Virus record (IMG/VR): IMGVR_UViG_3300045988_154156
Length of the DNA: 64,000 nt
DNA from: a virus
Strand: one strand, 5' to 3'
Shown piece by piece: positions 11,604-63,699 of this stretch. The notes beneath the pieces were generated by a model. It searched no databases, was not told where the DNA came from, and saw only the letters and a program-made list of their open reading frames with translations. How positions within the stretch are numbered: the first letter of the stretch is position 1; each line of letters starts with the position of its first letter. A program made the translations under genes and the position numbers.

Positions 11604-14600
11604 ATGAGAAGTTATTTTGGTATTCATAATCACACTCATTATTCTAATATTAGACTATTAGACTCAATTAATCGTCCTCAAGCATTAATTGATAAAGCTA
11701 TTGAATTAGGTTTATCTGGAATAGCAATTACTGACCATGAATGTTTATCTGCGCATATGGAAGTTAATCAATATGCGAAGAAATTATAGGAAACAAATCC
11801 TAATTTTACTATCGCACTTGGTAATGAAATTTATTTAACTGAAACTCGTCAAACTGGACAAAAATATTATCACTTTTTATTATTAGCTAAAGATGCTATT
11901 GGTCATAAAGCATTAAGAGAATTAAGTTCTATTGCTTGGATTAATAGTTATATTGATAGACGTATGGAACGTGTTCCTACTTTAAAAAGCGAATTAAAAG
12001 ATGTAATGTCTAAATATAAAGGTCATGTTATTGCTACTACAGCTTGTATTGGTGGAGAACTTGGTAGTTGTTTACTTCCAATGTATGAAGCTAATTTAGT
12101 TAATGACCAAAATACAGTAACTAATTATTCAATTCAAATAATGGATTTCATTAATTATTGTATTGAAGTATTTGGTGAAGATGATTTTTATCTTGAGTGT
12201 GCGCCTTCTAATAAAGAAGACCAGATGATTGTTAATAGACAAATTTATAAAATATCTCAATCTACTGGATTGAAAATGGTAATTGGTACTGACTCTCATT
12301 ATTTAACAAAAGAAGATAGAGCAATTCATAAAGCGTATTTAAATTCTAAAGAAGGCGAACGAGAAGTTGATACTTTCTATGAATTTGCGCATTTAATGAC
12401 AAGCGATGAAATCTTTGAATTAATGGAAAGTGATGCTGACACTTGGGATAGTAATAAATCAGGAAAAGAAATTTTAGATTGGATTTTAGATAATACTCAA
12501 AAAATTCAAAGTAAAATTTCTTTTTATTCTTTAGAAAGAAAGCAGATTATTCCAAAAGTAGAAGTAACTGATTATCCTCAATCATTAGCTGGTTGGTTTG
12601 AGCGCACAGAAAAATATCCTATTTTATGTAGCTTATTAATGAGTGATAACCCACAAGAAAGATATTGGGTTAATGAATGTTATATGTCTTTATTAGAAAA
12701 GATATATGATAAAAGTATTTCAGATGATAAGTTAGATATTTATTTAAATCGTCTTGAAATTGAAGCTGATATTATTAAAGATATTGGTGAAAAATTGGAT
12801 GATTGTTTGTTTGCTTATTTTAATACTTTTAAACACTATATTGATTTGTTTTGGAAATGCGGTTCTATTGTAGGTCCTGGTCGTGGTTCAGCAACAGGAT
12901 TTTTATCCAATTATTTATTAGGTATTACACAGCTTGATCCTATCCGCTGGGGTTTACCTTATTGGCGTTTTTTAAATAAAGAACGTGCTGAATTACCTGA
13001 TATTGATATTGATCTTGCGCCAAGTAAACGTCCTGCTATTTTTAAAGCAATTCGTGATGAACGTGGTGATTTAGGCTTAGTCCAAGTTGCTACATTTGGT
13101 ACTGAAGGAACTAAATCTGCGGTATTAACAGCTTGCCGTGGATATAGATCAGAAGATTTTCCAGAAGGTATTGATAATGATCAAGCACAATATATGTCTT
13201 CTCTAATTCCTCAAGAAAGAGGATTCTTATGGCCAATTCATGATGTTGTTTATGGCAATGAAGAAAAAGACCGCAAGCCAATTCAAGCTTTTATTAGAGA
13301 AGTAAATCAATATGATGGCCTGTTAGATATTATTATTTATATTGAAGGTATTATTAATAAACGTTCTTCTCATGCTTCTGGTGTTATTTTATATGGTGAT
13401 GATCCATTTGAAACAGCATCTTTTATGCGTACTCCCAGTGGTGATATTATCACTTGTTATGATTTGCATAAAGCAGAGGCAGCAGGCGATACTAAATATG
13501 ATTTCCTTGTAACTGAAGCATCTGATAAAATAATTACTTGTTATCAATTACTATTAAAGGATAATCAAATCCCTGATTTACCTTTAAGAGAATTTTATAA
13601 TAAATATATTCATCCAGAAGTAATAGACACAACAGATCAACGTATTTGGGATCACTTGGCGGCTGGCGATGTACTTGATGTATTCCAGTTCTCTACTGGA
13701 GTTGGATTAGCAATTGCTAAGAGATTAAAACCGCAAAATCCTATGGAAATGACGGCAGCAAATGCTATGATGCGTTTAATGTCTGAAAAAGGTAAAGAAT
13801 CTCAGCAAGATAGATATTATCGAATTCAACATCAAGGTATTCAAGTATTCGACGCTGAAATGAAGCAAAATCATTTGCCACAAGATTTAATTGATAAATT
13901 TCATAAGCATTGTGATAAATATTATGGTTGTTGCCCTATTCAGGAACAAATGATGGAAATTCTTATGGATATTGCGGGATTTACTTTAGGTGAAGCAAAT
14001 AGCGCTCGTAAAGTTGTTGCTAAAAAACAAATGTCAAAGATTCCACAATTAAAAGAGCAAGTATTTAGTAAATTTGATGATCCTAAAGTTGCTGAATACT
14101 TCTGGGAAATTGCGGTTGCTCCACAATTAGGTTATGCTTTTAGTTTAAATCATTCTTTACCTTATTCTTTTGTAGCAATTCAAATGATTTATTTAGTAAT
14201 AAATTATAATCCTATTTATTGGGATACCGCTTGTTTAATTGTTAATAGTGGTTCATTGGAAGATAATACGGAAGAAGAGCTAGTCGATATTTATGCTCCT
14301 GAAGGTGACGATTTAGCAAATGGTGTAACATTTGAAGATTTACCAGATAAGAGCGCAAAAATTAGAAGAACTGCTTCAACTGATTATGGAAAAATTGCTA
14401 AAGCTATTAGTGATATTCAAAAAGCAGGTATTGAAGTCGGTTTGCCAGATATTAATAAATCTAAGTTTGGTTTTGCTCCTGATATTGAAAATAATAAAAT
14501 TCTTTTTGGATTAAAAGGAATGTTGAATGTTGGTGATGATTTAGTTAATACCATTATTACTAACCGTCCATATATTTCTCCAAAAGATTTTTTATATAGA

Positions 14601-15599
14601 ATTAAGCCTAGTAAACAAGCTATGATATCTCTTATTAAAGGCGGTGCTTTTGATAATATGATGGATAGAAAATTATTAATGGGCTGGTATATTTGGGAAA
14701 CTTGTGATAAAAAGAGTCGTATTACTTTACAGAATATGAGTAGCTTAATTAAATATAAATTATTACCAGAAGATACTGATAAGCAAATTATGGCTCGTCG
14801 TGTTTTTGAATTTAATAGATATTTAAAAGCAGTTTGTAAAGATACAGCAAGTTTTTATAAATTAGACACAAGAGCAATTAATTTCTTAGTTGAAATTGGT
14901 GAAGATAATTTAATTGAAGAGGGCACGAAGCTGGATCAAAAGATATGGGATAAAAAAGTCTATCAACCTTGGATGGATGTATTTCGCGATTGGATTAGCG
15001 AAAATAAAACAGAAATTCTTGAAAATTTAAACGCAGTTATTTTTAAAGAAGATTGGAATAAATATACTGGTAAAAATAATTTATCAGCCTGGGAAATGGA
15101 AGTACTTTGCTTCTATTATCACAGTCACGAATTGAAAGACATTAATAATAAAAAATATGGATTTGCAGATTTCTTTGCTCTTCCGCAAGAACCAGAAGTA
15201 GATAGAAGCTTCTCCAAAGGTGGTAAGACAATTCATATCTATAAATTAAATACAATCTGCGGTACGTGTATTGCTAAAAATAAAACTAAAAGTACTGTTA
15301 CTATTCTTACTACTACTGGTCCTGTTGAAGTAAAATTCAGAAAAGAATATTTCAGTTTATTTGATAAACAAATTTCAGAAAAAGGACCGGATGGAGTAAA
15401 ACATATCGTCGAAAAGTCTTGGTTTAACCGAGGGAGTATGATTGTAGTTATGGGCGTGCGCCAAGGAGATAATTTTATAGCTAAAAAATATGCTTCTTCT
15501 CCTGGTCACCAGTTATATAAAATTGATGAAATTTTTGATGATGGAACTATTACATTACGTAATACTCGTTATCAGGGAGGAATAGAAGAAGATGTATAA
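11604..15599 (+). CDS. dnaE: DNA polymerase III alpha subunit-like replicative polymerase (PHP plus polymerase core), 1,331 aa with a single in-frame TAG at codon 62
   Basis: PHP domain HNHTHYSNIRLLDS…AITDHE. The 1,211-aa uninterrupted ORF 11964-15599 is in frame with the 11604 ATG and joined by TAG 11787-11789. RBS AAGAAAGGA. Confidence 0.9.
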
Positions 15600-16164
15600 A
15601 ATTGTAGCCATTATGGGCAAAGCAGGAAGCGGGAAGGATAGTCTTATGAAGGCTATCCTTCACCATGATACCGAAAAAAAATTAAATGAAATAATTAGTT
15701 ATACTACTCGTCCAATTAGAGAAGGAGAGCAAGAAGGAATTAATTATCATTATGTTTCTAATGAAGAATTTTCTCAATTAGTATTAGAAAATAAAATGTT
15801 AGAAGCGACAGTATTTAACTCTTGGGGATATGGTACTGCCATTAATTCATTAAATGAAAACAAAATTAATATTGGAGTATTTAACCCTGCGGGAGTTGAA
15901 AGCTTAATGAAAGATTCTCGTATTGATTTAAAAGTATTCTATATTGAAGCTTCAGACAAAGAAAGATTAATTCGTCAGCTAAGTCGAGAAAGCGATCCTA
16001 ATATTGAAGAAATATTTAGACGTTTTAAAGCAGATGAAATTGATTTTTCTGATTTATCAGATTTTAATTATACTACTATTAATAATGAAATTAAAAAAGA
16101 TTTTTATCCTGCTGTATATGCTATGGGAAGGCAAATCCGCGATTGGGCAGACGGATTTAATTAA
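15592..16164 (+). CDS. Deoxynucleoside monophosphate kinase-like P-loop kinase (190 aa, no TAG)
   Basis: GKAGSGKDS P-loop; overlaps the dnaE stop (ATGTATAAA). Confidence 0.65.
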   Translation: MYKIVAIMGKAGSGKDSLMKAILHHDTEKKLNEIISYTTRPIREGEQEGINYHYVSNEEFSQLVLENKMLEATVFNSWGYGTAINSLNENKINIGVFNPAGVESLMKDSRIDLKVFYIEASDKERLIRQLSRESDPNIEEIFRRFKADEIDFSDLSDFNYTTINNEIKKDFYPAVYAMGRQIRDWADGFN

Positions 16165-16232: not shown

Positions 16233-18476
16233 ATGATTTATATTATAAAGCGCAATGGCACAATTGTTTTATTTGATAAAAATAAAATTATTAATGCTAT
16301 TAATAAAGCATTTATTGAAGTTGATGGATAGCTTTATGAAAATGATACCGCTCAAGATATCGCTAATGATATTGAACGTCAAGTAAATTATTTCCCTGAT
16401 GGTAGTGTAGGGGTAGAAGATATCCAAGATTGGATTGAAGATTATTTGATGCGCTCTGAGCGTCGTGATGTAGCTCGTGCATATATTAGATATAGATATA
16501 AAAAAGAAGTTGCTCGTGAAAAGAAAGATGATTTTATTCAAGCCATTAGGAAAAAGCTTGATGGTAAAGATATTAAAAATCAAAATGCTAACGTTGATGA
16601 AGCATCATTTGGCGGACGTATTGGCGAAGCCAGCAGTGTAGTAACTAAACAATTAGCTTTAGATTATATCTTATCACCAATGGCAAGAGATAATCATTTA
16701 AATAATATGATTTATACTCATGATCTTGATGCTTATTATGTTGGTTCTCATAATTGTTTAAGTATTCCTTTTGATGATTTACTTGCTAATGGATTTAATA
16801 CTCGCTAGACAGATGTACGTCCAGCAGGTTCAGTAAATACAGCTTTTCAATTAGTGGCTGTTATTTTCCAAATTCAAAGTCTTTCTCAATTCGGCGGCGT
16901 TAGTGCCACTCATCTTGATTGGACTATGGTTCCTTATGTAAGAAAAAGTTTTTATAAACATTGGAAAGACGGAATGCGTTATATTGAAAAAGTTGATTCA
17001 TGTGGGAAAGCATCTAATCCAGAAAATTTATCTATTGCTGATAATGGATATTTAGAATTTGAAAAAGCATATAAATATGCTATGGATATGACTATTAAAG
17101 AAGTCCATCAAGCAGTAGAAGGTATGTATCATAATCTTAATACTTTACAATCTCGTTCAGGAAATTAGTTGCCATTTACCTCTATTAATTATGGTACTTG
17201 TACTCTTCCAGAAGGAAGAATGATTACTAAAGCACTTTTGGATGTATCTATTGAAGGTATTGGCAAATTACATAAAACTTCTATTTTCCCTTGCGGAATT
17301 TTTCAATGTATGAAGGGAGTTAACCGTGAACCAGGTGACCCAAATTACGATTTGTTTAAACTCGCATTATAGTCCACCGCCCAAAGATTATATCCCAACT
17401 ACGCGAATGTTGATTGGTCAGGGAATGCTGGATATGATATCAATGACCCACGCACCTATTTTTCTACAATGGGATGTAGAACAGCCAATGGATACGATAT
17501 TAACGGTTTCGGTCAGCTAAAAGATGGTCGTGGTAATATTTGCCCAGTAACTATTATTATGCCCACTTTAGCTATGGAAGCTAAAGAAATGGCAGATCAT
17601 CAATATTTTGAAGATGGTTTAGATGCTCAAAAAGAACAATATCGTTGCAGATGTTTTATGAATTTATTAGATCAAAAAATTAATGAAGCAAGAATTCAAT
17701 TGATGGAACGTTTTGACTGGATTTGCTCACAAGACCCAAAATCTGCAAAATTTATGTATGAAAATAATTTAATGGCAGGTTATATTCCAGAAGAAGGAAT
17801 TAGAAGTGCCCTTAAGCATGGTACATTAGCTATAGGATAGATTGGTTTAGCTGAAACTCTTCAAATTCTTATTGGATGCGATCATACTGATCCAAGAGGA
17901 ATGAAAATGGCAAAAAAGATTGAAGAATTATTTAAACAACGTTGTGCTGAATTTAAAGAAGAATATAAACTTAATTTTGGAGTATATTATACGCCAGCTG
18001 AAAATTTATGTTATACAGCAATGCAAAAATTCAAAGAAAAATACGGCATCATACCTAATGTTTCTGATAAAGAATTTTTCACTAATAGTATCCATGTTCC
18101 CGTATGGAAGAAAATTTCTCCCTTTGACAAAATTGATATTGAAAGTCAGTTAACAGGTTATTCTTCTGCTGGATGTATTACCTATGTAGAATTAGATTCT
18201 ACTGTAAAGCATAATATTGATGCTCTTGAACAAATTGTTAATTATGCTATGGATAAAGATATCCCTTATTTTGCAGTAAATGTGCCTAATGATACTTGCC
18301 TTAACTGCGGATATTGTGATGAATTTAATGATAAATGTCCTGAATGCGGTAGTACCAATATTCAATAGCTACGTCGTGTGACTGGTTATTTAACTGGAAA
18401 CTACAAAACTGCTTTTAACTATGGTAAACAAAAAGAAGTAGAAGCACGAGTAAAACATACGGGGTAGATGGAATGA
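16233..18476 (+). CDS. nrdD: Anaerobic ribonucleoside-triphosphate reductase NrdD (about 747 codons, about 7 in-frame TAG)
   Basis: ATP-cone at the N-terminus. C-terminal Zn-ribbon CLNCGYC…CPECG followed by the glycine-radical motif RRVTGYL. Five ORF fragments in one frame, all joined by TAG. RBS GGAGGA. Confidence 0.9.
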
Positions 18477-18820
18477 CACATTCAATTTATGATTTAGCAA
18501 ACTATTTTAATTAGCAACAAGGAAGAAAATATCCTTGTTCTAATTAGATAGTGATATGTGCTTATATAACTGATAATTCGCAAGAAGTTTACAATTATTT
18601 AGATAAAAATAATATTATACCAATCAGAATATCAAAAACTCGTATAGAATGGCAAGAAAATAATGAGCGATGGATATGGTTACCTATAACTTAGAATACC
18701 AGAGGTTATAGATTTTATAAAATAAAAATATCTAAAAATTATAATAATGAGGAAATATTAAAAACAATAATTATTCCTTATTGCAGCTTATATTGTTGTT
18801 CTTGGGAGGTTATGGAATGA
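18473..18820 (+). CDS. Hypothetical protein (about 115 aa, 3 TAG)
   Basis: ATG overlaps the nrdD TGA. Continuous frame to TGA at 18818. Confidence 0.4.
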
Positions 18821-19494
18821 ATTATTCTAAAAGACCTTTAAAAAAGCATTAGAAAATAAAAGATAAATTAGAAAAAGCTACTGAAGTATTAAATAAAAAA
18901 ATTGACTCGGAATTAGAGGCAATTATAAAAAAAATATTTTCTTGGATAGCTGATGATGAAAAGATTAATACAAAAGAACATCGAGATGATTTAATAAATT
19001 TATTTTATAAAGCTTTAGAAAATCTTTATTCTGAAATTAATATATAGTTAGGAAAGATTTATAAAACCGTAGCTCCTTTTAATTTAAAGGATATAACAGA
19101 TTTAACTTTTCAAGAAGATGGAAAAACATTAGATGAGCGAATTACTAAATATTTAGATGATTTAGAAGAAAAAAGATTATCTGGTGATTTTCCAGATAAT
19201 TTAAAAAGCTTTGGTGCTAATATGTATTCTCGTCTGTTAAATAATGAAGGTAGATATTTATTTACTCATTTAATGAAAATGAAAATAAAACCTGTAGCTT
19301 CAATACTTGTAATTGAAACAGGAACTTGCGATGATTTATGCGGTGAATGGAATGGAGAATACCCTGCAGAAGAAGATGTTCCTCTTCCTCCCTACCATAC
19401 TAATTGTTAGTGTTCTGCTTATTATATTGAAACTGATGATGAAGATGATGTTAATGACTTAGATTTAGAAGTGGAGGAAGCAAAAAATATATGA
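18817..19494 (+). CDS. Protein with a Phage-Mu-F-like C-terminal motif (…PLPPYHTNC(TAG)CSAYYIE…), 225 aa
   Basis: RBS GGGAGG. C-terminal PPxHxNCxC signature typical of MuF/SPP1 gp7-like domains. Unusual position between nrdD and nrdG. Confidence 0.45.
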
Positions 19495-19979
19495 AATATG
19501 CAGGAATTATAAAAAATGATATTGCCGCAGCACCTGGAGTATGTGTTTCATTCTTTGTTCAAGGTTGTCCTAATCATTGTAAAGGATGCCATAATCCTGA
19601 AACATGGGATTTTGATGGTGGTAAAGAATTTACGAGTGATATATTTACTGAAATTACTCAAGCATTATAGGCAAATGGTATTCATCGAAATTTTTGTATA
19701 ATGGGTGGCGAACCATTATGTGAACAAAATCAATTGCTTACTTTACTTTTGGTCCGTACTATAAAAGAAAAACTTCCTAATACAAAAATTTATGTATGGA
19801 CTGGATATTATTATGATGATTTAATTAAACAAAAAGATAATGGAAAACTTCAAGAAATTCTTAGCAGTATTGATGTCTTGATTGATGGTCCATATATCCA
19901 AGAGCAAAGAGATGTATCATTGCCTATGCGTGGAAGTAAAAATTAGCATATTATTAATTTAAATTCAAATAAAAATTGA
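19491..19979 (+). CDS. nrdG: Anaerobic RNR activating enzyme NrdG (radical SAM activase)
   Basis: CPNHCKGC cluster near the N-terminus and IMGGEPL. Overlaps the upstream stop (ATATGA). 1 TAG. True end is either TAG 19944 or TGA 19977. Confidence 0.85.
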
Positions 19980-21653: not shown

Positions 21654-22166
21654 ATGAATATTTTATTTTTAGATTTATCTACTAAATCTACTGGATATTG
21701 TATTTCTGATGATGCTGGTAAAATGATTACTTATGGTTTAATTACAGCATCATCAGAAAATAATATTTCAAGAATTGTTAAAATACAAACTGAAATTACA
21801 AAATTAATCCAATAGTATAAGATAGAAAAAATTATAGCAGAAGATGTTCATCCCGAAGAATATGGTTACTCAGATACTGCAAGATTATTAATGTGGCTTT
21901 AGGGCGCAGTTATGTTAGGTGCGCATTCAGTTAATTCTAAAGTAAATTCTAAAACTTTAGAATTAATGTAGGCTAACGAATGGCGCCGTCAACTAGGAAT
22001 TAAAGTAGGCCGTGGTATTAAACGATCAGCTTTAAAACCTTTAGATATTTAGTATGTAAAAGAACATTATGGTATTGAAGCAAATGATGATGTTTGTGAT
22101 GCTATATGTTTATTTACTGCTTATTTCCTCGCGCAGTAGCAGCAAAATGATTATAATTGGGAGTAA
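21654..22166 (+). CDS. RuvC-like Holliday junction resolvase (phage type)
   Basis: N-terminal ILFLDLSTKSTGYCI (catalytic Asp), then IAEDVHPE and DDVCDAICLF acidic residues. RBS AGGAGGT. About 5 TAG. Confidence 0.65.
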
Positions 22167-29743: not shown

Positions 29744-29746
29744 ATA

Positions 29747-31976: not shown

Positions 31977-31981
31977 AATTT

Positions 31982-32203: not shown

Positions 32204-32216
32204 TTAATTTACCTCC

Positions 32217-39964: not shown

Positions 39965-39983
39965 AACTTATCTCTTCCTTTCT

Positions 39984-40031
39984 AAAAAAATTAGGGTAGA
40001 TAGATTTTACCTTCTATCTACCCTAATTTTT
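39984..40031 (-). terminator. Intrinsic terminator (TTAGGGTAGATAG-loop-CTATCTACCCTAA) with T-runs on both strands
   Basis: 13-bp stem flanked by AAAAAAA on the 5' side and TTTTT on the 3' side; downstream of small gene 40062-40262. Confidence 0.7.
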
Positions 40032-40061
40032 AATTAAATTAAATAATCAACATTTGGCCGA

Positions 40062-40262: not shown

Positions 40263-40273
40263 AAAAATTCTCC

Positions 40274-48049: not shown

Positions 48050-48071
48050 ATTTTACTCCTTTCTATCCTAT

Positions 48072-48111
48072 AAAAAAATTATGGGGAAAGAAGAACACCT
48101 TCTTTCCCCAT
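48072..48111 (-). terminator. Strong intrinsic terminator (ATGGGGAAAGAAG-loop-TTCTTTCCCCAT followed by T7 on the - strand)
   Basis: 12-13 bp GC-containing stem; A-run on + means a T-run on -; located after gene 48170-49858. Confidence 0.8.
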
Positions 48112-48169
48112 AAAAACATTCTTCTATATAAGAAGAAAAAATTATAAGCAAAATTAATTTATATTGGCC

Positions 48170-49858: not shown

Positions 49859-49863
49859 TTATT

Positions 49864-50547: not shown

Positions 50548-50611
50548 TTTAATCACTCCTTTTTCTGTTTCTTCCTTTTATTTATAAAAGTTATCTCAAT
50601 AAATTTATAAA

Positions 50612-50640
50612 AGCTTGGCCTATTAGACCAAGCCTTTATT
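50612..50640 (-). terminator. Weak stem-loop/terminator (AGCTTGG…CCAAGCT) after the 50642 gene
   Basis: 7-bp stem with a G-U wobble; T-rich tail on the - strand. Confidence 0.35.
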
Positions 50641-50641
50641 A

Positions 50642-52753: not shown

Positions 52754-52754
52754 A

Positions 52755-53102
52755 TTATCCCTCCTCGTATAAAATATCCACAATTAAATAAGCATTGGTA
52801 TTTTGATTAATTAAATTCATGGAAGCTTTATCAAATTTAATAGAAGTTATATAAGAAATTCCTTCTAAATCTAATTCATAAATACCAGTACTTCCAACCA
52901 TAACACTATTATCACTTTCATTTAAATAAAACTTAACTCCAGGTACTGTCTAAATACCTAACTAAGTAATTAATACATTATTACCATTAATTTTAAATGC
53001 GGAACCATTAATTAATTTAGTCATACCTAAAGAAGTTCCACCGGGATAATTTTTTACATTATTTTCATTGTAATAACGAATCTATTTAATTCGCTTTGCC
53101 AT
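52755..53102 (-). CDS. Small structural protein (about 115 aa)
   Basis: RBS GGAGGAAC; 3 TAG; TAA overlaps the next RBS. Confidence 0.45.
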
Positions 53103-53115
53103 TTAGTGTTCCTCC

Positions 53116-55431
53116 TTAATATACTTTTGATATAGCTTTGGTGGCACTAATAGACATTGTTCCATTATAACTTAACGGAATAGTTAATTTATTAACTAAA
53201 TATTCTCCTTCTACGCCACTTTTTTTATCTTCAATATAAATTCTAGTATTTGGTTCTAAATAATAAACTGGTAAAGTAGTTATTGTACTACTTTCAGTAC
53301 AATAAGCAGTTGTCTATAATAAATCTTCCATTTCATCAATGGCACTTTTACCCATAGAACTAATACTAAAATAATTATCATAATTTTTAGGGACATTTAC
53401 CCAAACATATCCAGTTTCTTGAGGATAATTATTTTCAACAATTCGATCATAGTCTCCTTGATTTAAAAATAACACTTCAGGTACATCTCTATAACTTATA
53501 ACTTTTATATTAGTATCATTAACTGCTTTTGTTCTATCACCAATTAACTTTATTGAATACTTGCTAATATCACTATTTTCTTCTCCAATAAAATCAAACC
53601 AAAAATCTAAATTTTCTGGATATTGCTTAACATTATCATAGAATGTACGATGTTCAAAATCATAAATCTAACGCCAAAATGAAAAAATATCAGCATAATA
53701 TGTTTCATATCCAGTTACTCCAGAAGGATAGAGAGTAGGGTTGGCGGCTGCTACTTTATGGAGAAAATCATCACCATAATTATATTGATAATAATCAACA
53801 GCCATACGATATATAATTTCGCGCCAATCACAATAAATTATACCTGCCGGATCTCCATCTTCAGGGTAAGCTTTAAATGTTTGCTATTTTAGCTATAAAT
53901 TCATTGTTTGAAATATTTCATTATTATAAGTTAAAGTTTTATATCTATTAATATCATCTTGAGTAACTATAATAGTTGTATATTGAACAGGCTTTGTGTC
54001 AATAGCATAACGCATATGGATTGGAAGTTCTTCTCCACTTGCGGATTTGCGCTATCCCCAAATTGAAAAATCATTTCTTAATATATTAATCTAAGGATTA
54101 TTAGCGAACTAAGTTACTATCTAACTATCCTTAAATGAATAAGTATAAGAAGAAGAATAAACTGCCGGTTTAATATAACTTTCTCCTTCTGATTTTTTAA
54201 CTATATTATTCCATGATTTAAAATCGTAAAATTTTTTGCGCTAAAAAATAAACCTACCATCAATATCATAAAAATATTCAAAACAACTTAACATATTCTT
54301 AATTTTGTCTAAGACTGATGTTAAAGTATCACCAACATTAGTTATTAAATCTCCAGCATATACTAAATCACAAATTCGATAACCGACTGGTTCTCCATAC
54401 GATTTTTTAGCAATAGTATAAACTGTAGGATTAGGCGTATCTAAAGATAAAATAATTCTAGTTGGCTAATTTTCTTCTCCTAATAACTTATAAGAATCTA
54501 GCTAATCAAATATAATCTATTCAAGAGGAATTGGTCCATGACTTATTTCTTCATATAAATTAGGAAGATTATCTCCAATTACTACATTCACTACACGACC
54601 TGTCTCAGCATCTCTAAAGAAATACATATCAGCATCACATTTATTTTGTAATAATTCATAACCATATTCATCTAAATCATTAATAACAATATTAGATTCT
54701 AATTCTTTACCATAAACCATCAAGGCTTTTTTAATAATAGTCTTAATAGGTACTTTAACTAAATCTAAAATACGTTCACGATAATAATAAGTTCTATTTT
54801 CTGTTTTAATTTCATTTTCGTCTAAAACATAATATATTTTCTCATTGCCATTAGTAGCAATATAATAATTATTATACTTTTTTGCTTCTTCTTCACTATT
54901 CACTCTAAAACAGTAATGTCCAGCATCATAGTTAAAATCATTATCTTGAACAATATAATTATATTTAATAACTTCTTCCTAACCAAAGTCAATAGAAGCA
55001 GGTAAACTTCCTCCAAGGTCACCGTTTAATAAACACATTTTATCTTTACCTTGAATAGAAATTGTATAATTACTAGCGCTTTGAGAAGTATTAAAAGAAG
55101 TTATTAAATAAATACCTTCATTAAACCAAATAATATCAGGGTAATTTGAATCAATAGTATTTTTTAAACCAACAGCAAGATTAAATTTAGATTTTAGTCC
55201 CCACATATATTGCTTATATAACTAATCATTTGTTACCATAGTCAAAGAACAAGATCTGCGGACAGCAGATGACCCATCAATATTAATAGATCCAGTCGTT
55301 ATCTTGCCTTCAATCGTTTCTATTGGTAATTCATCAAAAGTCATTAACTCAATACGTGCATAAACTTCACGTTCATGGAGACTATCTAATTTTCTTAAAA
55401 ATTCTTTATCAAGATTCTATTGATGTCTCAT
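53116..55431 (-). CDS. Virion structural protein (about 771 aa)
   Basis: ORFs 54979-55206 and 54517-54903 and the terminal segment are all in the same frame; ATG 55431; TAA 53116-53118; about 17 TAG. Confidence 0.5.
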
Positions 55432-58288
55432 AATTATTTATAGCCTCTTTCAAATATTTAATAAATAAATTATATTTATTATTTACATCAGCTTGCTTAG
55501 TTTTTATCATATCATTATAAGTTCTTAACTACGATTCATACAGAGAAGCGTTGATTGAATTTGGAGTAAATGGTAACATATAGACTCCATCATCTGAATT
55601 ATCATCTTCTCCGCGCTTTAGTCCCTGATATACCTATAAATCATTATAAGCTTTTTGCCATTCAGTTTTTAACTAATAAATAGTCTTTTCAACATAAGTG
55701 TTTCCAGTAAAAACTTTATATTTAGTACTATTATCGTTTTCAAAAGAAAATACTTTCTCTTGACGTTGAATAGATAATTCACATAAAATCCCAGGATCAA
55801 TTTCTACTGAAGTAATATCACTTAAATCAGTAACGAAATATTCATTTTTATGAGTAATATCAATTAATTCTTTATCATCATTATTAAAACGAATTTTATA
55901 ATCCCATTCATCTTCTGTAACTAATCGGCCATTATAAGTGATTGGCTTCTAAGTATTACCATCATAAAAATAAGGCACAGAATCAGTAGGAGGATTATTC
56001 ATTTCTGTTGATAAATTATAAACCTTATAAATTAAAGATCTATCAAAAGAAGTTAATAAATCATTTGATTTTTGTTCACGAGCGCCACCAGGAGATAAAT
56101 AGAATTTCTTTCCATCTAAAGTATAAATAGTCTATAATTCTCGTTTAGTAAAACGCATAAAATAAATCTTTAATACAGTATATTTTAAGTCATCCTAATA
56201 CTAATCTAAAATATTGCCGCCATCCACACTATAGCATTGCTCTAATGGTAAATCAGCGATTTTAACATCTTCTATAATATCAAATTTGCTTTCTTGAGTT
56301 CCCATAAATGAATACTCGATAGTTCCTTGCTAAATACCCTAATCAGAAATGTTTACAATTTCTAATGTATATACTGGCATTGAATGGTCAATTAAATAAG
56401 CACCAGTAACACCAATAACTACTTCTTCATTATTAATTTTAAATTTGTCTCCTGCGCTAAATCCTTGTAAGCGCAATGTTATCGCAGGCCCATTAAAGAT
56501 TAAATTTTCTGTATATAATCTTTTATGAGTGGGATTTAATGAATCATTTTCTACTTTACAAAATTGATAAGTAGCTAGTAATGATTCAATATTAACCTCT
56601 AATTCTCTTTTAGTTTGATTTAACTTATTAATAGATTCAGTATTTGTTTCCGTTGTTAATCTATCAATACAATCATTATAACTTTTAAGGCAACTATTTA
56701 ATTTATAAATCCCATAAAGAGATAAACTATTCCATTTAAGAATTTCACTATTAGGTTCATCAGCATCAACAAATCCATAAGAATTAAGATTATCAAAAGT
56801 AACCTTATCAATCTCATAAGCTGTTCCTTTAAATGAATGTAACATACGTCCTAATGTATCTTGCGGAGTTAATGTAACATTTAAAAGTCTAACAATAAAA
56901 TTGCCTTCTGCCGGAGATTTAAACAATTTAGGCTTTCCGTTAGTTAAAAATTCTAAAACTTTAGTTTTAAATTGACGCTCTATATTATAATTATAATCTG
57001 TTAAATCAGTGCTAGTAAAATCCTTTATTTCATCATTTCCTAATTTATTTATAAATAAATGACTTTCATCTTGTAAATAAGAAATTAGCCCACCAATAGG
57101 AAATTCATGATAATAAGTATTTCCATTACGGAAAATATAAGGATATTGACTTCCTATAGTATCCATTTTAGTTTCTAAAGTATTAATTTTAAAACTTTCT
57201 ACTTTAGGATTAAATCTAATTTTTAACAATCTACCATTTTCATATAAAAAGCTATCTTCAAATATACTATAAATTATATTAGATAAAATTTTATTTGAAC
57301 GCAAAGAAGTTGCATCACTATACTATTGAATAGCATACTGATAAGAAAATCCATGCTCAACAGTAAAGTCTTTATATAATACACGACTAGGCGCTTCACC
57401 AGTTAATTTAAATTTAAGAATAGGATTCCAAGAACTATAGTTATCTTCACTACTAGCTCTTAAAAGAATAAAAGCTCCAGTAGCAGGAATCTCTGATTTA
57501 GTAGCAGCATCTTTAATACCTTTTAAATTAATTTGCGCAAATCCATTATTTTCATCCATGACTGCTTGTAAAGTAGCACGAATTTCAGGGTCAATCGTTT
57601 CTCTATTAATAATACGATATTCAGGACTAGTCGCCTCATAATTATTAATTGTAGTAACTTTATACTAAATATAATAATTTTTACCTTTAATTAATTCTTT
57701 ATTTAACTCAAAACTATCATATGACTCATATAACTGTTCATCATTGATAGTGTTATGTAGCTATTCTCCAGAAGTAGCAAATACATTATGGTATTCATCA
57801 TATACAATAAATTGATAAGAATAAACTCTTTCAGTTACATCACCATTATATTGACTATAATGACCAATAAAATTAGTTTTATTAATACCAATACCACCTG
57901 ACTCCAATCCTTCAATTTCTACTTTTGGATCTGTAGTATATTTAACAATACCAACTGTAGAATAATATCCTATAACTTTATTATTATCAATATAAGCTAA
58001 TTGAACCTTATAAGACTACCCTAAATTTAATTGAAAAGCATTGCCATTAATTTGTTTAAACTTTAATTGGAAAGTAATTGAACCACTATTAATAGCATCT
58101 TGTGCTTGAGATGAAACAATCTAACCTTGCGCAATTACTACATTACTTTGTATAGTTTTAAATATATAAGCGAATCCACTAACTTCTGCCGCACTTACAG
58201 TTTGATTCATCTGGAACGGAATAGTTAATTCCGTTCCAGTAAATGCAGGTAGCGTTCCACTTATATAAGGCGGATATAATTTATTCAT
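55409..58288 (-). CDS. Virion structural protein (about 959 aa)
   Basis: RBS AAGAGGAGGA before ATG 58288; ORFs 57323-57559 and 56339-57304 in the same frame; TGA 55409-55411; about 16 TAG. Confidence 0.5.
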
Positions 58289-58291
58289 AAA

Positions 58292-58453
58292 TTATTCCTC
58301 CTCTTGTTTTTGTTGTGTATTATTCTAACGATAAATGAATTCTTTTAAACTTTTAATACATTCTCCCATTAAAATAGTATCTTCACCTTTCGTAGAAATA
58401 CAAATTAATGTGTTATATAAAGCATTTAAATAATTTAAATCCTCTTTATTCAT
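58292..58453 (-). CDS. Small protein (53 aa)
   Basis: ATG overlaps the upstream TAA (TAATGA); 1 TAG. Confidence 0.35.
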
Positions 58454-61400
58454 TAGTTTTTTTCCTCCTTTAACTCTTTCACTTGAAGCTTTAATTCTTC
58501 AATCTCTTTCATTAAATCTTGTGTGACTGCAATATTTAATGTAAATAAACTATTATAATTTAATGATAATAATTGTTTTTCATCTTTTTTTATTAAACTA
58601 TTATCATTTAAATTATTTTCCTGTAAAATATTTTCAATATCCTAAGCAATAAAACCTAAATAAGTTCTATCAGATAATTTATATTTATAACTAACAGGTT
58701 TTAATTCACTAAATAATTTTTTATAATCATTAATATGATTATAACTAATATTAGTTTTTAATCGTTTATCAGATTTTACACTAATTTCTTCGCTAGAGAA
58801 ACACCCTGAACCTGTTACATAAATCTAATTACCATAATAATACATAGAAGCACCACTATTAGAAGCAGCAACATATCCTCCATTAGCAGCATACATCTAA
58901 ATACCTCTTGTACTTCCTGCTCCACTACTACCTACATAAGAATACTCAATTCCACCATAGCCACTACGAGAAGAATCTAATTTTGAAGCTAAACCATTAA
59001 TTGCACTCTATGCCTAAGAAGCAGCACTCTATGCCTATTGAGCTGCGCTAGCAGCAGCATTAGCAGCCTCTTTAGCATCTTCAGCTGTCGTCTATAAATA
59101 TGTTAAAATTGAATTTAATGAAGTAGTATCATTATTATCAAACCAACTTAAACGCCCATTTTTATATTTAATATAAATATCTCCATTGAATGTTCCTGTA
59201 TTAGCCCACACATACCCATTATTTAAATCAATCTTCATACCAATTTTACCATTATCAGCATAATTTTTTGATTGTAAATAATAACTATTATTACCAACAT
59301 TCATTAAAGTATCATATCCAACTGGATCTCGAATAGTCAAATAATTTGTGCTATTAGCACCGCTATTAATTGTAAAAACTGAACTGCCTTTTATTTTACA
59401 ATCTAATAAATTACTCTCTAAATTAAGTAACATACCATTACCATTAGTAATATCATAAGTAGCAGATTTTAAAAGACATTGATTACCATCTAATATAATA
59501 CGACCTTTACCATCTTTACCAAAAAATGCCGTACCATCTTCTCTTAAAGCGAATGACTATTCTCCTTGATGGAATCCATATATGCCACACTAACCACTAA
59601 TACTATTATCTGATATTGATTCACCATTAGGGCTCCAATCGCCCATCAATACACCAGAAAAAGTATTATCATCATTTTTCTTACCGGCAGCAATCTAACT
59701 AGCTAAAATGCTTCCGCTTGCTTCATTTAATACTAAAGACTTACCATCCCATTTATTTATCATAGATGAAGGATACTTATTCTATAATATTAAAATAGGC
59801 TAAGTCCATAAAATATTTCCCTAAGCATTTTTACACTGTACCGCATACTAGGGAGCACCATTTACATATATTGCTAAAGGATATAAATATGATTTATTAT
59901 TAATTACTTTAATAATTCCATAAAAATCAGATTCAGCAGTAGAAGTTCTTCTATAATAAGTTCTAGAGCCAGAACTGCTATATACTTTTTCATAATAATT
60001 AATTGTTCTATAAGTAGTAGAAATTAAATTATTATTACTATCCTTTATATAATAACTTTCTCCATCAATCGGATTTCCTACAATATCAGTCCCTAAAGTT
60101 TTTTTATAATAATTTAATTTATTAAATATAGAATATACATAATTATTATTATTTCCACTCCTAATATAACAATTACTGTAATCAATAATATCACCATTAG
60201 GAATTACTTTATAACTATCTTTACTTGCATCTAATGAATATAGTGATGGTCCAGTATATATAAATTTATACATAATATTATTTTGTTTAAAATAATAAGT
60301 AGATAACCGTACTAAATCATTAAAAGTACAAGTAGTAGTCGCACCATCAGAACTTTCATCTATTTCAGAAACATAGTATTCTTTAAAATCATAAGAAATT
60401 ATTGTATTATTTTTAAAAATATAATAGGTGGTATTATATTTCCATGAATTTTTATTAACAGACTAATATTTTGTAAAATATAATTCTTCAAAATCAAAAG
60501 GATAAATTGCACTATACTAAAACTAAGAATCACTAGCTAAAAATCTATATTCTTTTCCAGATTCTAAATCACTTATAGAAGTAATTTTTTCTCCATTAGT
60601 ATCATAAAGATTATTTATTAATTTATTATAACTAATAATAGAAGTCTAATTATAAGGTCCGCTACTATTAGTACGCTTAGTATTTTTTATAGTATATCTT
60701 TTATCAGGAATTTTCTAAATATCAATAATAGATAAATCACTTATTTTAGAATTTTTATCATAACTAATATCTTTATAAATTCCCTAAAGAGTGCTATAAT
60801 CTTCATTGGAAACATCATAATAAGCATAATATGGAAATTTATCAATTAAATTATTAATAGAAACAATTACTTTATTAGTTGCTAAATTATAAAATGTTTG
60901 AGCATCATAATAAGCAGAAATATAATTGCCTGTAGCTTCATCCTTCTAAAAATATAATGTTCCATCTATTAAATTATTAGGAGGAACTAAAGTATATTTT
61001 ATATCCTAACTACTTTGATAAAAAACAGTACTATCTATTGGCAAATAAAAATTCAACTAATCAATATCATTTGAACTAGCACTTACGTATAAATATTTAC
61101 CATTATCATCGCGTATATATCCGCTCGATACTTTTTTATATAAATCCTAATATTTAAAAAGATAAGAAATTGAACCATTTGAATTATAATAAGTTTCATT
61201 ATTAATTAAATCCCAATAGCTATCAACTAAAGTATATTTATTTTTGCTAGGATTTAATCTATAATAAGTCTAAGAAATTCCACTATATACAACTTCTGTT
61301 ACTCTATCTTCAAGATAATATTTTTTTCCTATGGTTGGATTAGAAACTAATCTAAAAGTCATATTAGAAGATAAAGTAGTTGGAATATAAATATCTTCTC

Positions 61401-63699
61401 CATTACTATTTTGTTCTTTATAATAATAAGTTTTATATTTTAATTCTTCAGATGTTGGATTACATACCGTATATTGATAACCATTAGAAGCTGGATAAAT
61501 ATCCCAATAAACATCTTGAATCTAAGTTAATTGTTTATCATTACCATATAATTGATAAGGTTCTTTAGAAAAAACAGCTTCACCATCACTTAAATAAATT
61601 ACCTAAGTGGGTCCATTAATATAGCTTCCTTGTCCAGAAGTAATCGGAATAGGATAATAAGCAGTTAATAAATAATTACCCCAATTCTATAATGTTACTG
61701 ATAAAATATACATTTTATTCATTAATGAATTTTTATTTAATACTGCGAATGTGATTTCATTAGATTTACCAGCTATAGTCTTTAAATTTACATTAGGATC
61801 ATCTACATTTAAAGACCATATACAATTATAACCACTTAAATCTATTTCTTTACCAGTATTATCATATAAAGAAGCTCTAAATTTATAATCTTTAACTTCT
61901 CCAGAAGTAATAGCAACAATTGGGTTACCAACTTGATCATCAACTAAATCAATAACTAAAGTACAATCAGTACCATTCGTGCCAGCTTGCCCAAATGTAA
62001 ATTCTTTTTTAGCTGTATATTCAACATTATCGCGTTTAATTTTCGCAATAACTATATTATTTGATTTATTCGCACTATAAAAATTATTTACTTTATATTT
62101 AACTATAAAATCTTTATCATTAGGATTATTAGATTTTATCTAATAATAATTATTATCATAATCTGTTAAAGTCTATCCTTCTAAAGCAAAAGACATCATA
62201 CTATTTTTTGGCAACAACCATAATACTTCTTGCGCTTCAGTTAATTGACTTTCATTTTCACTATTATTTTCCGTCCCATAAGTTTTAGAATTAAAATATA
62301 ACTACATAGAACGAACAATTTTATTATCGACAGTATTTAATAAATAATTTGCCTAATCATAAATTAAATAATTACCATTAGTACCATCAATGCAATGAAT
62401 AGATAAAGCATTTAAAACATCAACTGTTGCATCATTAGGTACTAGCATATCATTATTAAAAGTAATTATATTGCTGTAATAATATTTATTATTATATCTA
62501 ATAATAACTTTATATCGCTCATCCTGCTTTTCCGTCCGAGGAGTAAATTCATAATTAAACTAATTAGTATTATCTACGAATGTCCAATAAACACCACAGC
62601 GTTCATCCGCAGATGGCGCTCCAAAATCATATCTATACCATAGAATTTCTGCGCCCGCAGGCAATCTACTAATTTGAGATTTATTATTATCATCATCAAA
62701 ATGAATCCATTTTAAATGAATAGATTTTTTACTAACCTAACCATTAATAACTTTATAATTTAATCCATCATTGGTATAAAGTCTTAAAAATTCTCCATTT
62801 ATTTCATCTAAACCAATACCAAGACTAAAATAAATATTTTTTACAAATATATTATTTGGCAAAACAGAGGTAATACCAGTAGTTCCCTCCGTTAATTGAG
62901 TAGGTATTTTCTTATTATTTTTATCATAAAAATTATCATCTTGATATAAAAACACCTAAACTTTGTCTATGCGTGCAAGAGCGCTAATATCAATAACTAT
63001 TTCCTAAGAATAATATCCTTCAAAATTATATGGATTACCATACATATCTGAAGTATCTAATCTTACTTTATAAGTGCTAGTGGTAGAATTAAATTTTTCC
63101 GCAGTAGTTTCTTTTACTCCAGTAATAGCAATTTCTAAACCATAGTTACCTTGAACAGTACCTAACTCTTGAAGCCATGCTCTAAAATCTGCGCGCAATC
63201 CTAACCGTGTAAAACCTTGACAACTAGATGAAATTTTTATTCCATTATTATTCGAATCCTCTTCGTCTATTGGAGTAATTTCAATAAATCTTTCATCGCC
63301 ATTAGCAAGAATACTCCATAAAGGTTTATTATTCTAACCAGCAATAAACATATTACCAGTTAAATCAACAAAAGTATTAAAAGGATTTACATAATTATAT
63401 GGCTTATCCTAATCTTTATCTTCTTTTTTACCAACTATAAATTTAGTATTATTAAAATCACCTTTAGGGATTTGAACATATACTCTGTTATTTTTATTAT
63501 AAGTAGTAATTTGGGAGAAAGCATCAAATTCAGAATATGATTCATTCTTTACTCTATATTGCCCTTTTAATTTATTACTATCATCAATAATCGTACATTC
63601 AATAGTATTATCATAAGTAATCTTATCAACTGCCGATTTGGCAATAATAGATATAGCTTCGCATATATTTTCCTGAATATTTGTAGCATTATCAGCCAA
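58453..63699 (-). CDS. Giant tail spike/fibre (about 1,748 aa) with C-terminal intramolecular chaperone auto-processing (peptidase S74-like) domain
   Basis: RBS AAGGAGGG plus TTG start. Five long ORF fragments are all in one frame to TAA 58453-58455. C-terminus …VKSDKRLKTNISYNHINDYKKLFSELKPVSYKYKL…LGFIA(TAG)DIENIL… matches S74 motifs SDKRLKxNI and GFIAQE. About 50 TAG. Confidence 0.6.

What the first reader, a model, noticed from the sequence alone, without database searches (positions are those of the whole stretch)
11604..63699. Extremely uneven TAG density between genes suggests TAG-gated temporal expression
**TAG-poor genes.** DnaE has 1 TAG in 1,331 codons. The first gene (310 aa), the dNMP kinase, hypotheticals 22244, 23036 and 40062 have none. 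The Sak4-like gene has 1 in 329.

**TAG-dense genes.** Virion genes carry about 1 TAG per 30-45 codons; for example, about 50 in the 1,748-codon tail spike and about 60 in the 2,591-codon adhesin. RecJ-like (about 14) and nrdD (about 7) are intermediate.

**Inference.** Genes that must be made before amber suppression is established are TAG-free. Late genes are untranslatable until a suppressor is expressed. This matches the lysis-timing model proposed for recoded phages, but here DnaE is singled out within the replication module.
Basis: inference. Interest (0 to 1): 0.7.

Follow-up and report, generated by a model that had tools for sequence, protein, structure and literature searches.

The report
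Uneven TAG-as-glutamine use in a recoded phage
This phage reads the stop codon TAG as glutamine and uses it freely in tail genes but almost never in its DNA polymerase, a real and conserved pattern that is a new example of something already described in gut phages.

Summary
The unevenness is real. TAG makes up 37% of glutamine-type codons (TAG+CAA+CAG) overall, but 1 of 52 in DnaE and 46% in the tail genes. Heterogeneity across genes gives p≈2e-13, and still 8e-8 with DnaE removed.

The pattern is conserved. Twenty-six distinct DnaE orthologues in TAG-recoded relatives carry 3 TAGs in 1,221 glutamine-type codons. TGA-recoded relatives have 0 TGA in 34 Trp-type codons of DnaE. Per-gene TAG shares correlate with the distant phage phAss-1 (rho 0.64).

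The strict "TAG gate" reading holds only in part:
- DnaE's single TAG lies inside its essential PHP domain, and helicase, primase and Sak4 also carry TAGs.
- In a near-identical contig, the major capsid protein and other apparently abundant late virion proteins are TAG-free.
- TAG-dense genes sit at the mutational default (TAG 306, CAA 304, CAG 30), with no 5' bias.
- No suppressor tRNA was found.

Best reading: AT-biased mutation pushes TAG up, and gene-specific selection removes it from early genes, the core replisome and abundant proteins. This makes TAG-rich late genes depend on suppression in a graded way. It is a new member of a published phenomenon (Borges et al.; phAss-1).

The parts
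11604..15599 (+). DnaE (DNA polymerase III alpha), 1,331 codons; 1 TAG, 42 CAA, 9 CAG
   Evidence: Pfam PHP 8-199, DNA_pol3_alpha, finger and HHH_6 domains. Counts. Orthologues carry 3 TAG in 1,221 glutamine-type codons.
11787..11789 (+). The only in-frame TAG of DnaE (codon 62), inside the PHP domain
   Evidence: Sequence read directly. It aligns with R/K/L/Q in orthologues, and the N-terminal 61 residues are conserved. The 99%-identical contig shares this TAG and has a second at codon 1043, where the window has CAG.
11545..11573 (+). Sigma-A-like promoter match TTGATT-17-TGnTATAAT, about 30 nt upstream of the DnaE start
   Evidence: This is a consensus match only; such matches are not enriched over shuffles.
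131..1063 (+). First gene (phrog_2367, function unknown); 0 TAG in 8 glutamine-type codons, CAG-rich
   Evidence: Orthologues: 2 TAG in 140; 0 TGA in 29 in TGA-recoded relatives.
1220..2209 (+). Sak4-like annealing protein; 1 TAG in 13, CAG-rich; followed by a strong terminator-like hairpin at 2217-2248
3765..6615 (+). DnaB-like helicase (3765-5312; 2 TAG in 16), a small ORF, and primase (5512-6615; 2 TAG in 13)
   Evidence: Orthologues: 38/599 and 14/508.
6641..8356 (+). RecJ-like exonuclease; 14 TAG in 18 glutamine-type codons, the most TAG-rich replication-module gene
   Evidence: Orthologues: 181/865.
9551..10744 (+). Dda-like helicase; 8 TAG in 19
15592..16164 (+). Guanylate-kinase-type dNMP kinase; 0 TAG in 4 (uninformative alone)
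16233..19979 (+). NrdD (16233-18476; 7 TAG in 35), two small ORFs, and NrdG (19491-19979; 2 TAG in 10)
21654..22166 (+). RuvC-like resolvase; 5 TAG in 11. TAG-rich or TGA-rich in all relatives.
   Evidence: 98/239; 7 TGA in 12.
26949..63699 (-). Tail and structural block of 20 genes; 199 TAG in 436 glutamine-type codons (0.456), nearly uniform between genes
58453..63699 (-). Tail fibre/spike, 1,748 codons, TTG start; 39 TAG, 29 CAA, 4 CAG
   Evidence: Peptidase_S74 chaperone domain at the C-terminus.
40274..48049 (-).
32752..36786 (-). 1,344-codon glycine-rich protein; 26 TAG in 53

Best explanation
The window is part of a large tailed phage that reads TAG as glutamine.

**Mutation pressure.** In this 29% GC genome, AT-biased mutation turns CAG into TAG by a single C-to-T change, just as it turns CAG into CAA. 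Where TAG costs nothing, it should therefore be as common as CAA. That is the state of the tail, tape-measure and other low-copy late genes.

**Selection.** The unevenness comes from gene-specific purifying selection that removes TAG from two kinds of genes:
- Genes translated while host release factor 1 still competes at UAG. These are the small early genes and the core replisome, DnaE most strongly.
- The most abundantly made proteins. These are the capsid and probable major tail proteins and the first-gene/Sak4 pair, which also prefer CAG and C-ending codons.

**Consequence (inferred).** If each TAG is read through with probability s, full-length yield falls as s to the power n. A one-TAG DnaE is made at partial suppression, whereas 39- to 108-TAG proteins need near-complete suppression. 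TAG-rich late genes are thus conditional on the suppression state, but in a graded way. The sequence gives no sign that the gate itself is what selection built.

**Shown:** the recoding, TAG = Gln, the heterogeneity, its conservation, the TAG-specific nature of the avoidance in DnaE, and the TAG≈CAA default.

**Inferred:** timing, read-through efficiency, and the source of suppression.
For: **Recoding and TAG = Gln.**
- ORF coverage rises from 50% to 94% when TAG is sense.
- Window TAG sites align with CAA/CAG/TAG in 49% of orthologue cells, against 57% for CAA sites, with a Gln-like replacement spectrum.
- 7 of 9 TAG differences between the window and a 96-100% identical contig are with CAG or CAA.

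**Heterogeneity.** p=2e-13 overall and 8e-8 without DnaE.

**Not a composition effect.**
- DnaE GC3 is 0.156, typical for the genome.
- DnaE has TTG:CTG of 11:2 but TAG:CAG of 1:9.

**Mutational default in late genes.**
- The tail plus tape-measure block has TAG 306, CAA 304, CAG 30.
- In the tail block, TAG/(TAG+CAG) is 0.917 against TTG/(TTG+CTG) of 0.957.
- TAGs are evenly spread along genes: mean relative position 0.50, and first-TAG position is not early (p=0.08).

**Conservation (distinct orthologues in TAG-recoded loci).**
- TAG-poor: DnaE 3/1221, first gene 2/140, primase 14/508, topoisomerase 6/252.
- TAG-rich: RecJ 181/865, RuvC 98/239.
- The same families are poor or rich in TGA in TGA-recoded relatives: DnaE 0/34, first gene 0/29, RuvC 7/12, HNH endonuclease 19/21.
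- phAss-1: DnaE 0/59, capsid 0/15; per-family Spearman rho 0.64, p=0.001.

**Abundant late proteins are TAG-free and CAG-rich** in the near-identical contig and in most relatives. The capsid identity rests on 50% identity to the phAss-1 ORF that its authors annotate as major capsid protein.

**Two independent effects.** Module and codon bias each explain TAG share given the other (likelihood-ratio p=7e-9 and 9e-8).

**Support for a temporal component.** In phAss-1, two suppressor tRNAs sit inside the TAG-free replication block, directly upstream of nrdD.
Against: - No expression or read-through data exist; timing is inferred from gene function and gene order only.
- The capsid, tape-measure and early-block data come from a 96-100% identical contig, not from the window itself.
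- Orthologue counts are not corrected for shared ancestry, so their nominal p-values are inflated.
- Large residual over-dispersion remains after module and codon bias are fitted (Pearson chi-square 353 on 144 df). Other gene-specific factors therefore act as well.
- The Leu-based control suggests TAG may be slightly below neutrality even in tail genes (odds about 10 against 15-17).
- In phAss-1, late genes lie well below their expected TAG share (0.17 against about 0.31).
- No suppressor tRNA or other code-change factor was found, so the central quantity s has no identified molecular basis here.
Confidence: 0.6

Rival explanations
1. Strict adaptive TAG gate. TAGs are placed in late genes so that they cannot be translated until a suppressor appears. 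Genes needed before that point are kept TAG-free, and DnaE is specially protected.
For: - The early-like block is mostly TAG-free, while tail, tape-measure, portal and terminase genes all carry TAGs.
- DnaE avoidance is conserved in TAG-recoded and TGA-recoded relatives.
- RuvC and homing endonucleases are consistently recoded, as reported by Borges et al..
- The phAss-1 suppressor tRNAs lie in the TAG-free replication block.
Against: - DnaE, DnaB, primase, Sak4, ligase and GyrB each carry 1-2 TAGs, DnaE's inside its PHP domain.
- The capsid protein, the probable major tail protein and neighbouring head proteins are late but TAG-free.
- The TAG share in late genes equals the mutational default and shows no 5' bias.
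- No gene family here prefers TAG significantly after multiple testing.
- Within the window DnaE does not differ from the other core replisome genes (p=0.26).
Confidence: 0.2
2. Translation cost only. TAG is simply a slow or leaky glutamine codon that is avoided in proportion to expression level and to the harm done by truncated products. There is no change of decoding during infection and no temporal role.
For: - TAG-free late capsid and probable tail proteins, and the first-gene/Sak4 pair, also show CAG and C-ending codon preference.
- Codon bias predicts TAG share (LR p=4e-16 alone).
Against: - DnaE, topoisomerase, primase and helicase are not codon-biased (GC3 0.12-0.16, CAG share 0-0.18). 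Yet they are more TAG-poor than portal and terminase, whose codon bias is equal or stronger.
- Module remains significant after codon bias is fitted (p=7e-9).
- 108 TAGs in one gene require almost perfect read-through, which is hard to reconcile with a generally leaky codon (arithmetic: 0.95^108 = 0.4%).
Confidence: 0.12
3. Recent import. DnaE and the other TAG-free genes were recently acquired from standard-code phages or from the host, and have not yet accumulated TAGs.
For: - The clade mixes TAG-, TGA- and standard-code members.
- The early-like block has a clearly different composition (GC3 0.3-0.65).
Against: - DnaE has the genome's own composition (GC3 0.156; TTG:CTG 11:2).
- Orthologues at 82, 76, 69 and 60% identity, all in TAG-recoded contexts, are TAG-free, which shows long residence under selection.
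- Synteny around DnaE is conserved.
Confidence: 0.04
4. Chance or a gene-length artefact.
For: Orthologues of gene 22244 are 30% TAG.
Against: G-tests on glutamine-type codons give p=2e-13, and 8e-8 without DnaE. The pattern is reproduced in relatives and in a second recoding.
Confidence: 0.01

Closest known systems
Stop-codon-recoded gut phages and the temporal code-switch model (Borges et al., bioRxiv 10.1101/2021.08.26.457843, later Nat Microbiol 2022; earlier Ivanova 2014 and Yutin 2021, the last three dates and names from my own knowledge)
   Same: - TAG read as Gln in a phage of a presumably standard-code host.
- The recoded codon is frequent in structural genes and rare or variable in replication genes.
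- Homing endonucleases are strongly recoded.
- Close relatives use different codes.
- A suppressor tRNA was detectable in only about 40% of TAG-recoded genomes.
- That paper already ran a per-gene-family test of TAG against CAA/CAG.
   Different: - Here the most abundant late proteins are TAG-free.
- TAG-rich genes sit at TAG≈CAA, the mutational default, rather than showing preference.
- No lysis or other gene family is significantly TAG-preferring.
- The replisome is TAG-poor rather than TAG-free.
- This lineage is not one of the clades named in that paper, as far as I could test.
phAss-1 / proposed Phassvirus and its wider group (Babkin et al. 2023, PMC10607447; GenBank OQ749652.1, 'Caudoviricetes code 15 clade')
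   Same: - Large siphovirus-like genome of about 130 kb from a gut sample, using code 15.
- Same gene families: capsid 50% identical, TerL 45%, portal 41%, DnaE 38%.
- DnaE, capsid, primase, topoisomerase and NrdD are TAG-free, while TerL and the tape measure are recoded.
   Different: - There is no nucleotide-level similarity (megablast finds nothing).
- phAss-1 is 44.5% GC with a TAG share of 18%; this phage is 29% GC with 37%.
- phAss-1 has 36 tRNAs including three Sup-CTA; none was found here.
- In this lineage TAG has spread into RecJ, Dda, NrdD and even DnaE.
TAG-recoded crAss-like phages with metaproteomic proof of TAG = Gln (Peters et al. 2022, PMC9523058)
   Same: Code 15, recoded late structural genes, and an early region readable in standard code.
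   Different: Unrelated phage order with Bacteroidota hosts, and experimental evidence exists there. Here TAG = Gln rests on alignments only.
Codon-usage-based tuning of phage late genes with phage tRNAs (for example T4-like phages; general knowledge, not tested here)
   Same: Works alike: the yield of a gene depends on how well its codons are decoded at a given stage of infection.
   Different: There, rare sense codons slow translation. Here the codon is a host stop codon, so failure to decode it truncates the protein.

Membership tests
Code-15 (TAG to Gln) recoded Caudoviricetes | In-frame TAGs fragment conserved genes, and reading TAG as sense restores long ORFs | tested here: met
   Coverage by ORFs of at least 100 aa is 50% under table 11 and 94% with TAG as sense. 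TGA as sense gives only 54%.
Code-15 (TAG to Gln) recoded Caudoviricetes | TAG positions correspond to glutamine in homologues | tested here: met
   - 39% CAA/CAG plus 10% TAG at aligned orthologue codons, similar to CAA sites (52% plus 5%).
- 7 of 9 strain-level TAG differences are with CAG or CAA.
- DnaE codon 62 aligns with Q in three orthologues.
Code-15 (TAG to Gln) recoded Caudoviricetes | Phage-encoded suppressor tRNA with anticodon CUA (frequent, not universal) | tested here: inconclusive
   - No tRNA in the window (ARAGORN; Rfam).
- None in loci tiling nearly all of the near-identical 125.8-kb contig.
- That contig is not closed: its ends do not overlap, and a relative's contig continues beyond its end.
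Code-15 (TAG to Gln) recoded Caudoviricetes | TAG no longer used as a terminator; TAA and TGA retained | tested here: inconclusive
   My gene calls end in TAA (44) or TGA (12) by construction. Four genes have a TAG within their last 4 codons, which is the number expected by chance, so terminal TAG use cannot be excluded.
Temporal code-switch model (early genes in standard code, late genes recoded) | Early genes lack the recoded codon | tested here: met
   The early-like block lies outside the window, in the near-identical contig. There 43 of 62 called ORFs have no TAG, and the larger real-looking genes have 0.
Temporal code-switch model (early genes in standard code, late genes recoded) | Structural and lysis genes use the recoded codon | tested here: inconclusive
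   The result is mixed.
- Recoded: tail genes, tape measure (108 TAG), portal, terminase, endolysin.
- TAG-free: capsid, the 303-aa and 197-aa head proteins, the 332-aa virion protein, the chaperone and a holin-like gene.
Temporal code-switch model (early genes in standard code, late genes recoded) | Specific late or lysis gene families significantly prefer the recoded codon | tested here: not met
   Only RecJ and the tail spike exceed the pooled share (p about 4e-4 each). Neither exceeds the TAG≈CAA default after correction. The tail block is homogeneous.
Temporal code-switch model (early genes in standard code, late genes recoded) | Decoding of the stop codon changes during infection | not testable with these tools
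   This needs an infected host with time-resolved proteomics or ribosome profiling.
Phassvirus genus / phAss-1 group | Shared signature proteins and module content | tested here: met
   Capsid 50%, TerL 45%, portal 41%, DnaE 38% identity; 24 reciprocal families in all. This supports membership of the wider group only.
Phassvirus genus / phAss-1 group | Genus-level nucleotide identity (the three published members share 83-86%) | tested here: not met
   Megablast of 25 kb of the window against 50,697 phage records finds no match. The genus identity figures are from the paper's abstract.

The most novel reading that the evidence does not exclude
This lineage may carry no suppressor tRNA at all, yet it tolerates 39-108 TAGs per late gene at the neutral frequency. 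If so, an unrecognised phage factor neutralises host release factor 1 during infection. Host tRNA-Gln(CUG) would then read UAG through a first-position G·U pair. The number of TAGs per gene would act as a graded dial (yield = s^n) that sets both the timing and the copy number of virion parts. The abundant capsid and tail-tube proteins would be kept TAG-free and the low-copy fibres left TAG-rich.
Probability: 0.1. Interest if true: 0.7.

Novelty: new member of a known kind. Interest (0 to 1): 0.3.

Why it matters
The finding adds a well-sampled lineage to the known set of stop-codon-recoded phages. That lineage has dozens of relatives using TAG, TGA or standard code.

It also sharpens the published model in three ways:
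- The informative signal is depletion of TAG in particular genes, not enrichment in late genes.
- Depletion has at least two causes, timing and abundance.
- The same gene families are spared in two different recodings (TAG and TGA) among related phages.

For annotation, genomes like this one must be called with table 15, or half of the coding sequence is lost.

Tried and rejected
**Search for the suppressor tRNA.**
- I walked the near-identical contig in 10-kb steps, which used all 8 viral scans and the single metagenome scan.
- I ran ARAGORN and Rfam on every piece. No tRNA turned up, but the contig is not closed.
- A protein search meant to step further along a 200-kb relative found nothing.

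**Composition as the cause.** GC3 does not correlate with TAG share (rho -0.11). Rejected.

**Positional design of TAGs.** There is no 5' enrichment.

**Promoter co-occurrence.** Sigma-70-type matches number 125 against 134 expected from shuffles, so they cannot be used as evidence.

**Capsid identity.** Pfam, PHROGs names and PDB sequence search were all uninformative. Identity rests on homology to the phAss-1 ORF annotated as major capsid protein and on gene order.

**Nucleotide search in GenBank phages.** No close relative was found.

**Former TAG stops near C-termini.** Four genes have a TAG in their last 4 codons, which is about the chance number. Rejected.

**Leu-based 'neutral expectation'.** It is unstable because CTG counts are tiny. 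I rely on the TAG≈CAA comparison instead.

Full report
**What the window is.** The 64-kb window has 29% G+C. It is only half covered by ORFs of at least 100 aa under the standard code, but 94% covered when TAG is read as sense. Making TGA sense instead gives only 54%.

I called 56 genes with TAA/TGA stops and RBS-aware starts. They fall into two blocks:
- **A + strand block, 131-22687.** It holds replication and nucleotide-metabolism genes:
  - Sak4-like protein, DnaB-like helicase, primase and RecJ-like exonuclease;
  - Dda-like helicase and NrdG;
  - RuvC-like resolvase;
  - DnaE, a guanylate-kinase-type dNMP kinase and NrdD.
- **A − strand block, 22720-63979.** It holds tail and other late genes. 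These include a 1,748-codon fibre/spike with a Peptidase_S74 chaperone domain.

**Is the observation true?** Mostly.
- The two giant tail genes each have 39 TAGs, not about 50 and about 60.
- The tail block averages one TAG per 60 codons, not one per 30-45.
- Gene 40062 has no glutamine codon at all.
- Gene '23036' is TAG-free only if a TAG four codons before its TAA is taken as the stop.

I used TAG/(TAG+CAA+CAG), which removes gene length and glutamine content. On that measure the genes are strongly heterogeneous: G=164.9, df 53, p=2e-13. The signal remains without DnaE (p=8e-8) and inside the + strand block alone (p=2e-9). The 20 tail genes, by contrast, are nearly uniform at 0.456.

**TAG means glutamine.**
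- Window TAG codons align with CAA, CAG or TAG in 49% of orthologue cells. The figure for window CAA codons is 57%, and the replacement spectrum is the same.
- The window differs from a 96-100% identical contig at nine TAG-involving codons, and seven of those are TAG↔CAG or TAG↔CAA. One is DnaE codon 1043.

**It is not composition.**
- DnaE has the genome's ordinary GC3 of 0.156.
- DnaE also has the ordinary T-over-C bias at synonymous first positions of leucine codons (TTG:CTG = 11:2). Its TAG:CAG ratio, however, is 1:9.
- The avoidance is therefore specific to TAG.

**The TAG-dense state is the default.** CAG reaches TAG and CAA each by a single transition toward A+T. A cost-free TAG should therefore be about as common as CAA.
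- In the tail plus tape-measure genes the counts are TAG 306, CAA 304, CAG 30.
- TAGs are spread evenly along genes, and the first TAG is not significantly early.
- Nothing in the sequence looks like TAGs placed on purpose. The anomaly is the depletion in some genes.

**Conservation.** DnaE and the first gene retrieved more than 100 related loci from IMG/VR.

In TAG-recoded relatives, counting distinct orthologues below 97% identity:

| Family | TAG / glutamine-type codons |
|---|---|
| DnaE | 3/1221 (23 of 26 orthologues have none) |
| First gene | 2/140 |
| Primase | 14/508 |
| NrdD | 22/565 |
| Topoisomerase subunit | 6/252 |
| RecJ | 181/865 |
| RuvC | 98/239 |
| Gene 22244 | 78/256 |

Gene 22244 is TAG-free in the window, so that absence looks like chance.

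- Some relatives are TGA-recoded and carry a tRNA(UCA). In these the same families are spared or hit: DnaE 0 TGA in 34 Trp-type codons, first gene 0/29, Dda 0/26, RuvC 7/12, an HNH endonuclease 19/21.
- The distant, published phage phAss-1 shows DnaE 0/59 and capsid 0/15. Its per-family TAG shares correlate with this phage (rho 0.64, p=0.001).
- These counts are not phylogenetically corrected. Even so, the repeat across two different recodings is hard to explain without gene-specific selection, and it rules out recent import of DnaE.

**Where the strict gate fails.**
1. DnaE's one TAG (11787-11789) lies inside the PHP domain, downstream of the conserved metal-binding motif. Full-length polymerase therefore needs read-through. 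The 99% contig shares this TAG and has a second one.
2. Other core replication genes also carry TAGs. In the window these are DnaB, primase and Sak4 (1-2 each). In the near-identical contig, ligase and GyrB carry one each.
3. Within this phage, DnaE (1/52) does not differ from the other core replication genes (7/92, Fisher p=0.26). That set pools window genes with three from the contig just upstream. Clade-wide DnaE is the lowest.
4. Walking the near-identical contig beyond the window showed a mixed late module:
   - TAG-rich: the tape measure (108 TAG in 213 glutamine-type codons) and a 406-aa protein (24 in 36).
   - TAG-free and rich in CAG: the capsid orthologue, two neighbouring head proteins, a 332-aa virion protein in the major-tail position, and the chaperone.
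   - The TAG-free state holds in most relatives.
   - The capsid assignment rests on 50% identity to the phAss-1 ORF that its authors call major capsid protein. They do not mark that ORF as recoded.

A binomial model finds that genome module and codon bias each explain TAG share independently (p=7e-9 and 9e-8). DnaE is the largest negative residual and RecJ among the largest positive.

**The early block.** The remaining ~30 kb of the contig holds small genes that are mostly TAG-free. They are CAG-preferring and have GC3 of 0.3-0.65, against 0.13 elsewhere. This fits the published idea that early genes are readable by the unmodified host.

**The suppressor.**
- No tRNA or tRNA-like Rfam hit exists in the window.
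- None exists in loci tiling almost the entire 125.8-kb contig.
- ARAGORN did find all the phAss-1 tRNAs, including three with anticodon CTA. Two of those lie directly upstream of nrdD, inside the TAG-free replication block.
- The contig is not closed. Its start cuts a PhoH-like gene, its ends do not overlap, and a relative's contig runs on past its end. Absence is therefore unproven.
- Borges et al. found suppressor tRNAs in only 40% of TAG-recoded phages.

**Promoters.** Sigma-70-type matches are no more frequent than in shuffled sequence. Two good extended −10 matches with identical hexamers lie upstream of DnaE (11545-11573) and of a TAG-rich radical-SAM gene (2247-2275). They do not single out TAG-free genes.

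**How it most likely works.** AT-biased mutation drives TAG toward parity with CAA. Selection removes it from two kinds of genes:
- genes translated while release factor 1 still competes, namely the early genes and the core replisome;
- the most abundantly made proteins.

If each TAG is read with probability s, yield is s^n.
- A one-TAG DnaE is made at partial suppression.
- At s = 0.95 a 39-TAG fibre is completed 14% of the time and a 108-TAG tape measure 0.4% of the time.
- At s = 0.99 the figures are 68% and 34%.

Late, TAG-rich genes therefore depend on near-complete suppression. This gives a graded rather than binary dependence. That step, and the timing itself, are inference.

**Comparison with what is known.**
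- The phenomenon and the temporal model are published (Borges et al.; Peters et al.).
- A related code-15 group has been described (phAss-1).
- This phage belongs to that wider group by protein similarity, but not to the genus. It shows no nucleotide match to any GenBank phage.
- It is a new member of a known kind.
- The additions here are modest but useful: TAG≈CAA in low-copy late genes, TAG-free abundant late proteins, and the same families spared under TAG and TGA recoding.

Noticed in passing
L024 12545-13727 (endonuclease ORF 12694-13584); also L019, L027, L029, L034, L040, L044: DnaE orthologues in relatives are split at two sites, after about residue 456-479 and after about 843-848, by 0.3-1.2 kb insertions with a frame change. 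One insertion encodes a GIY-YIG endonuclease, so these look like group I introns. The window's DnaE is uninterrupted.
   Followed up: partly
window 24000-56000 compared with contig IMGVR_UViG_3300026522_000023: The window carries about 10 kb more than the otherwise 96-100% identical contig in the tail module. The region includes two radical-SAM/SPASM-like genes (29747-30709, 30702-31976), a 577-aa protein with YxDTPYRDY repeats (28010-29743) and a 1,344-aa glycine-rich protein (32752-36786). A third radical-SAM gene lies at 2311-3261.
   Followed up: no
window 25850-26500 (+): A response-regulator gene (receiver domain plus a weak LytTR DNA-binding match) sits alone on the + strand inside the − strand late block. 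A strong bidirectional terminator-like hairpin follows at 26511-26539.
   Followed up: no
L021 12245-12316, L023 12269-12340, L035 22156-22227, and several loci: Relatives with 52-53% identical DnaE appear TGA-recoded and carry a tRNA with anticodon UCA. The same clade therefore holds TAG-recoded, TGA-recoded and standard-code members.
   Followed up: partly
L150 11500-20500, L151 10300-20270, L159 10900-19900: The early-like block of the near-identical contig has GC3 of 0.3-0.65, against about 0.13 in the rest of the genome. It prefers CAG, has almost no TAG, and includes SpoVT/AbrB-like regulators.
   Followed up: partly
window and loci L128, L048, L015, L113, L115, L129, L150, L151, L159: No tRNA gene of any kind was found in about 135 kb of composite genome, whereas the distant relative phAss-1 has 36. 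The contig is not closed, so this remains open.
   Followed up: yes
window, all sense TAG codons: The base after a sense TAG is C more often than after CAA (14% against 6%) and G less often (chi-square p=7e-5). This could reflect selection on termination context.
   Followed up: no
window 63699, 50547, 39964 (− strand starts): Large tail genes appear to start at TTG behind strong Shine-Dalgarno sequences. The 1,748-codon length of the tail spike depends on the TTG at 63699.
   Followed up: partly
window 6641-8356, 9551-10744, 16233-18476 compared with orthologues: This lineage has far more TAG in RecJ (78% against 21%), Dda (42% against 8%) and NrdD (20% against 4%) than its relatives. TAG seems to be spreading into the replication module here.
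   Followed up: partly
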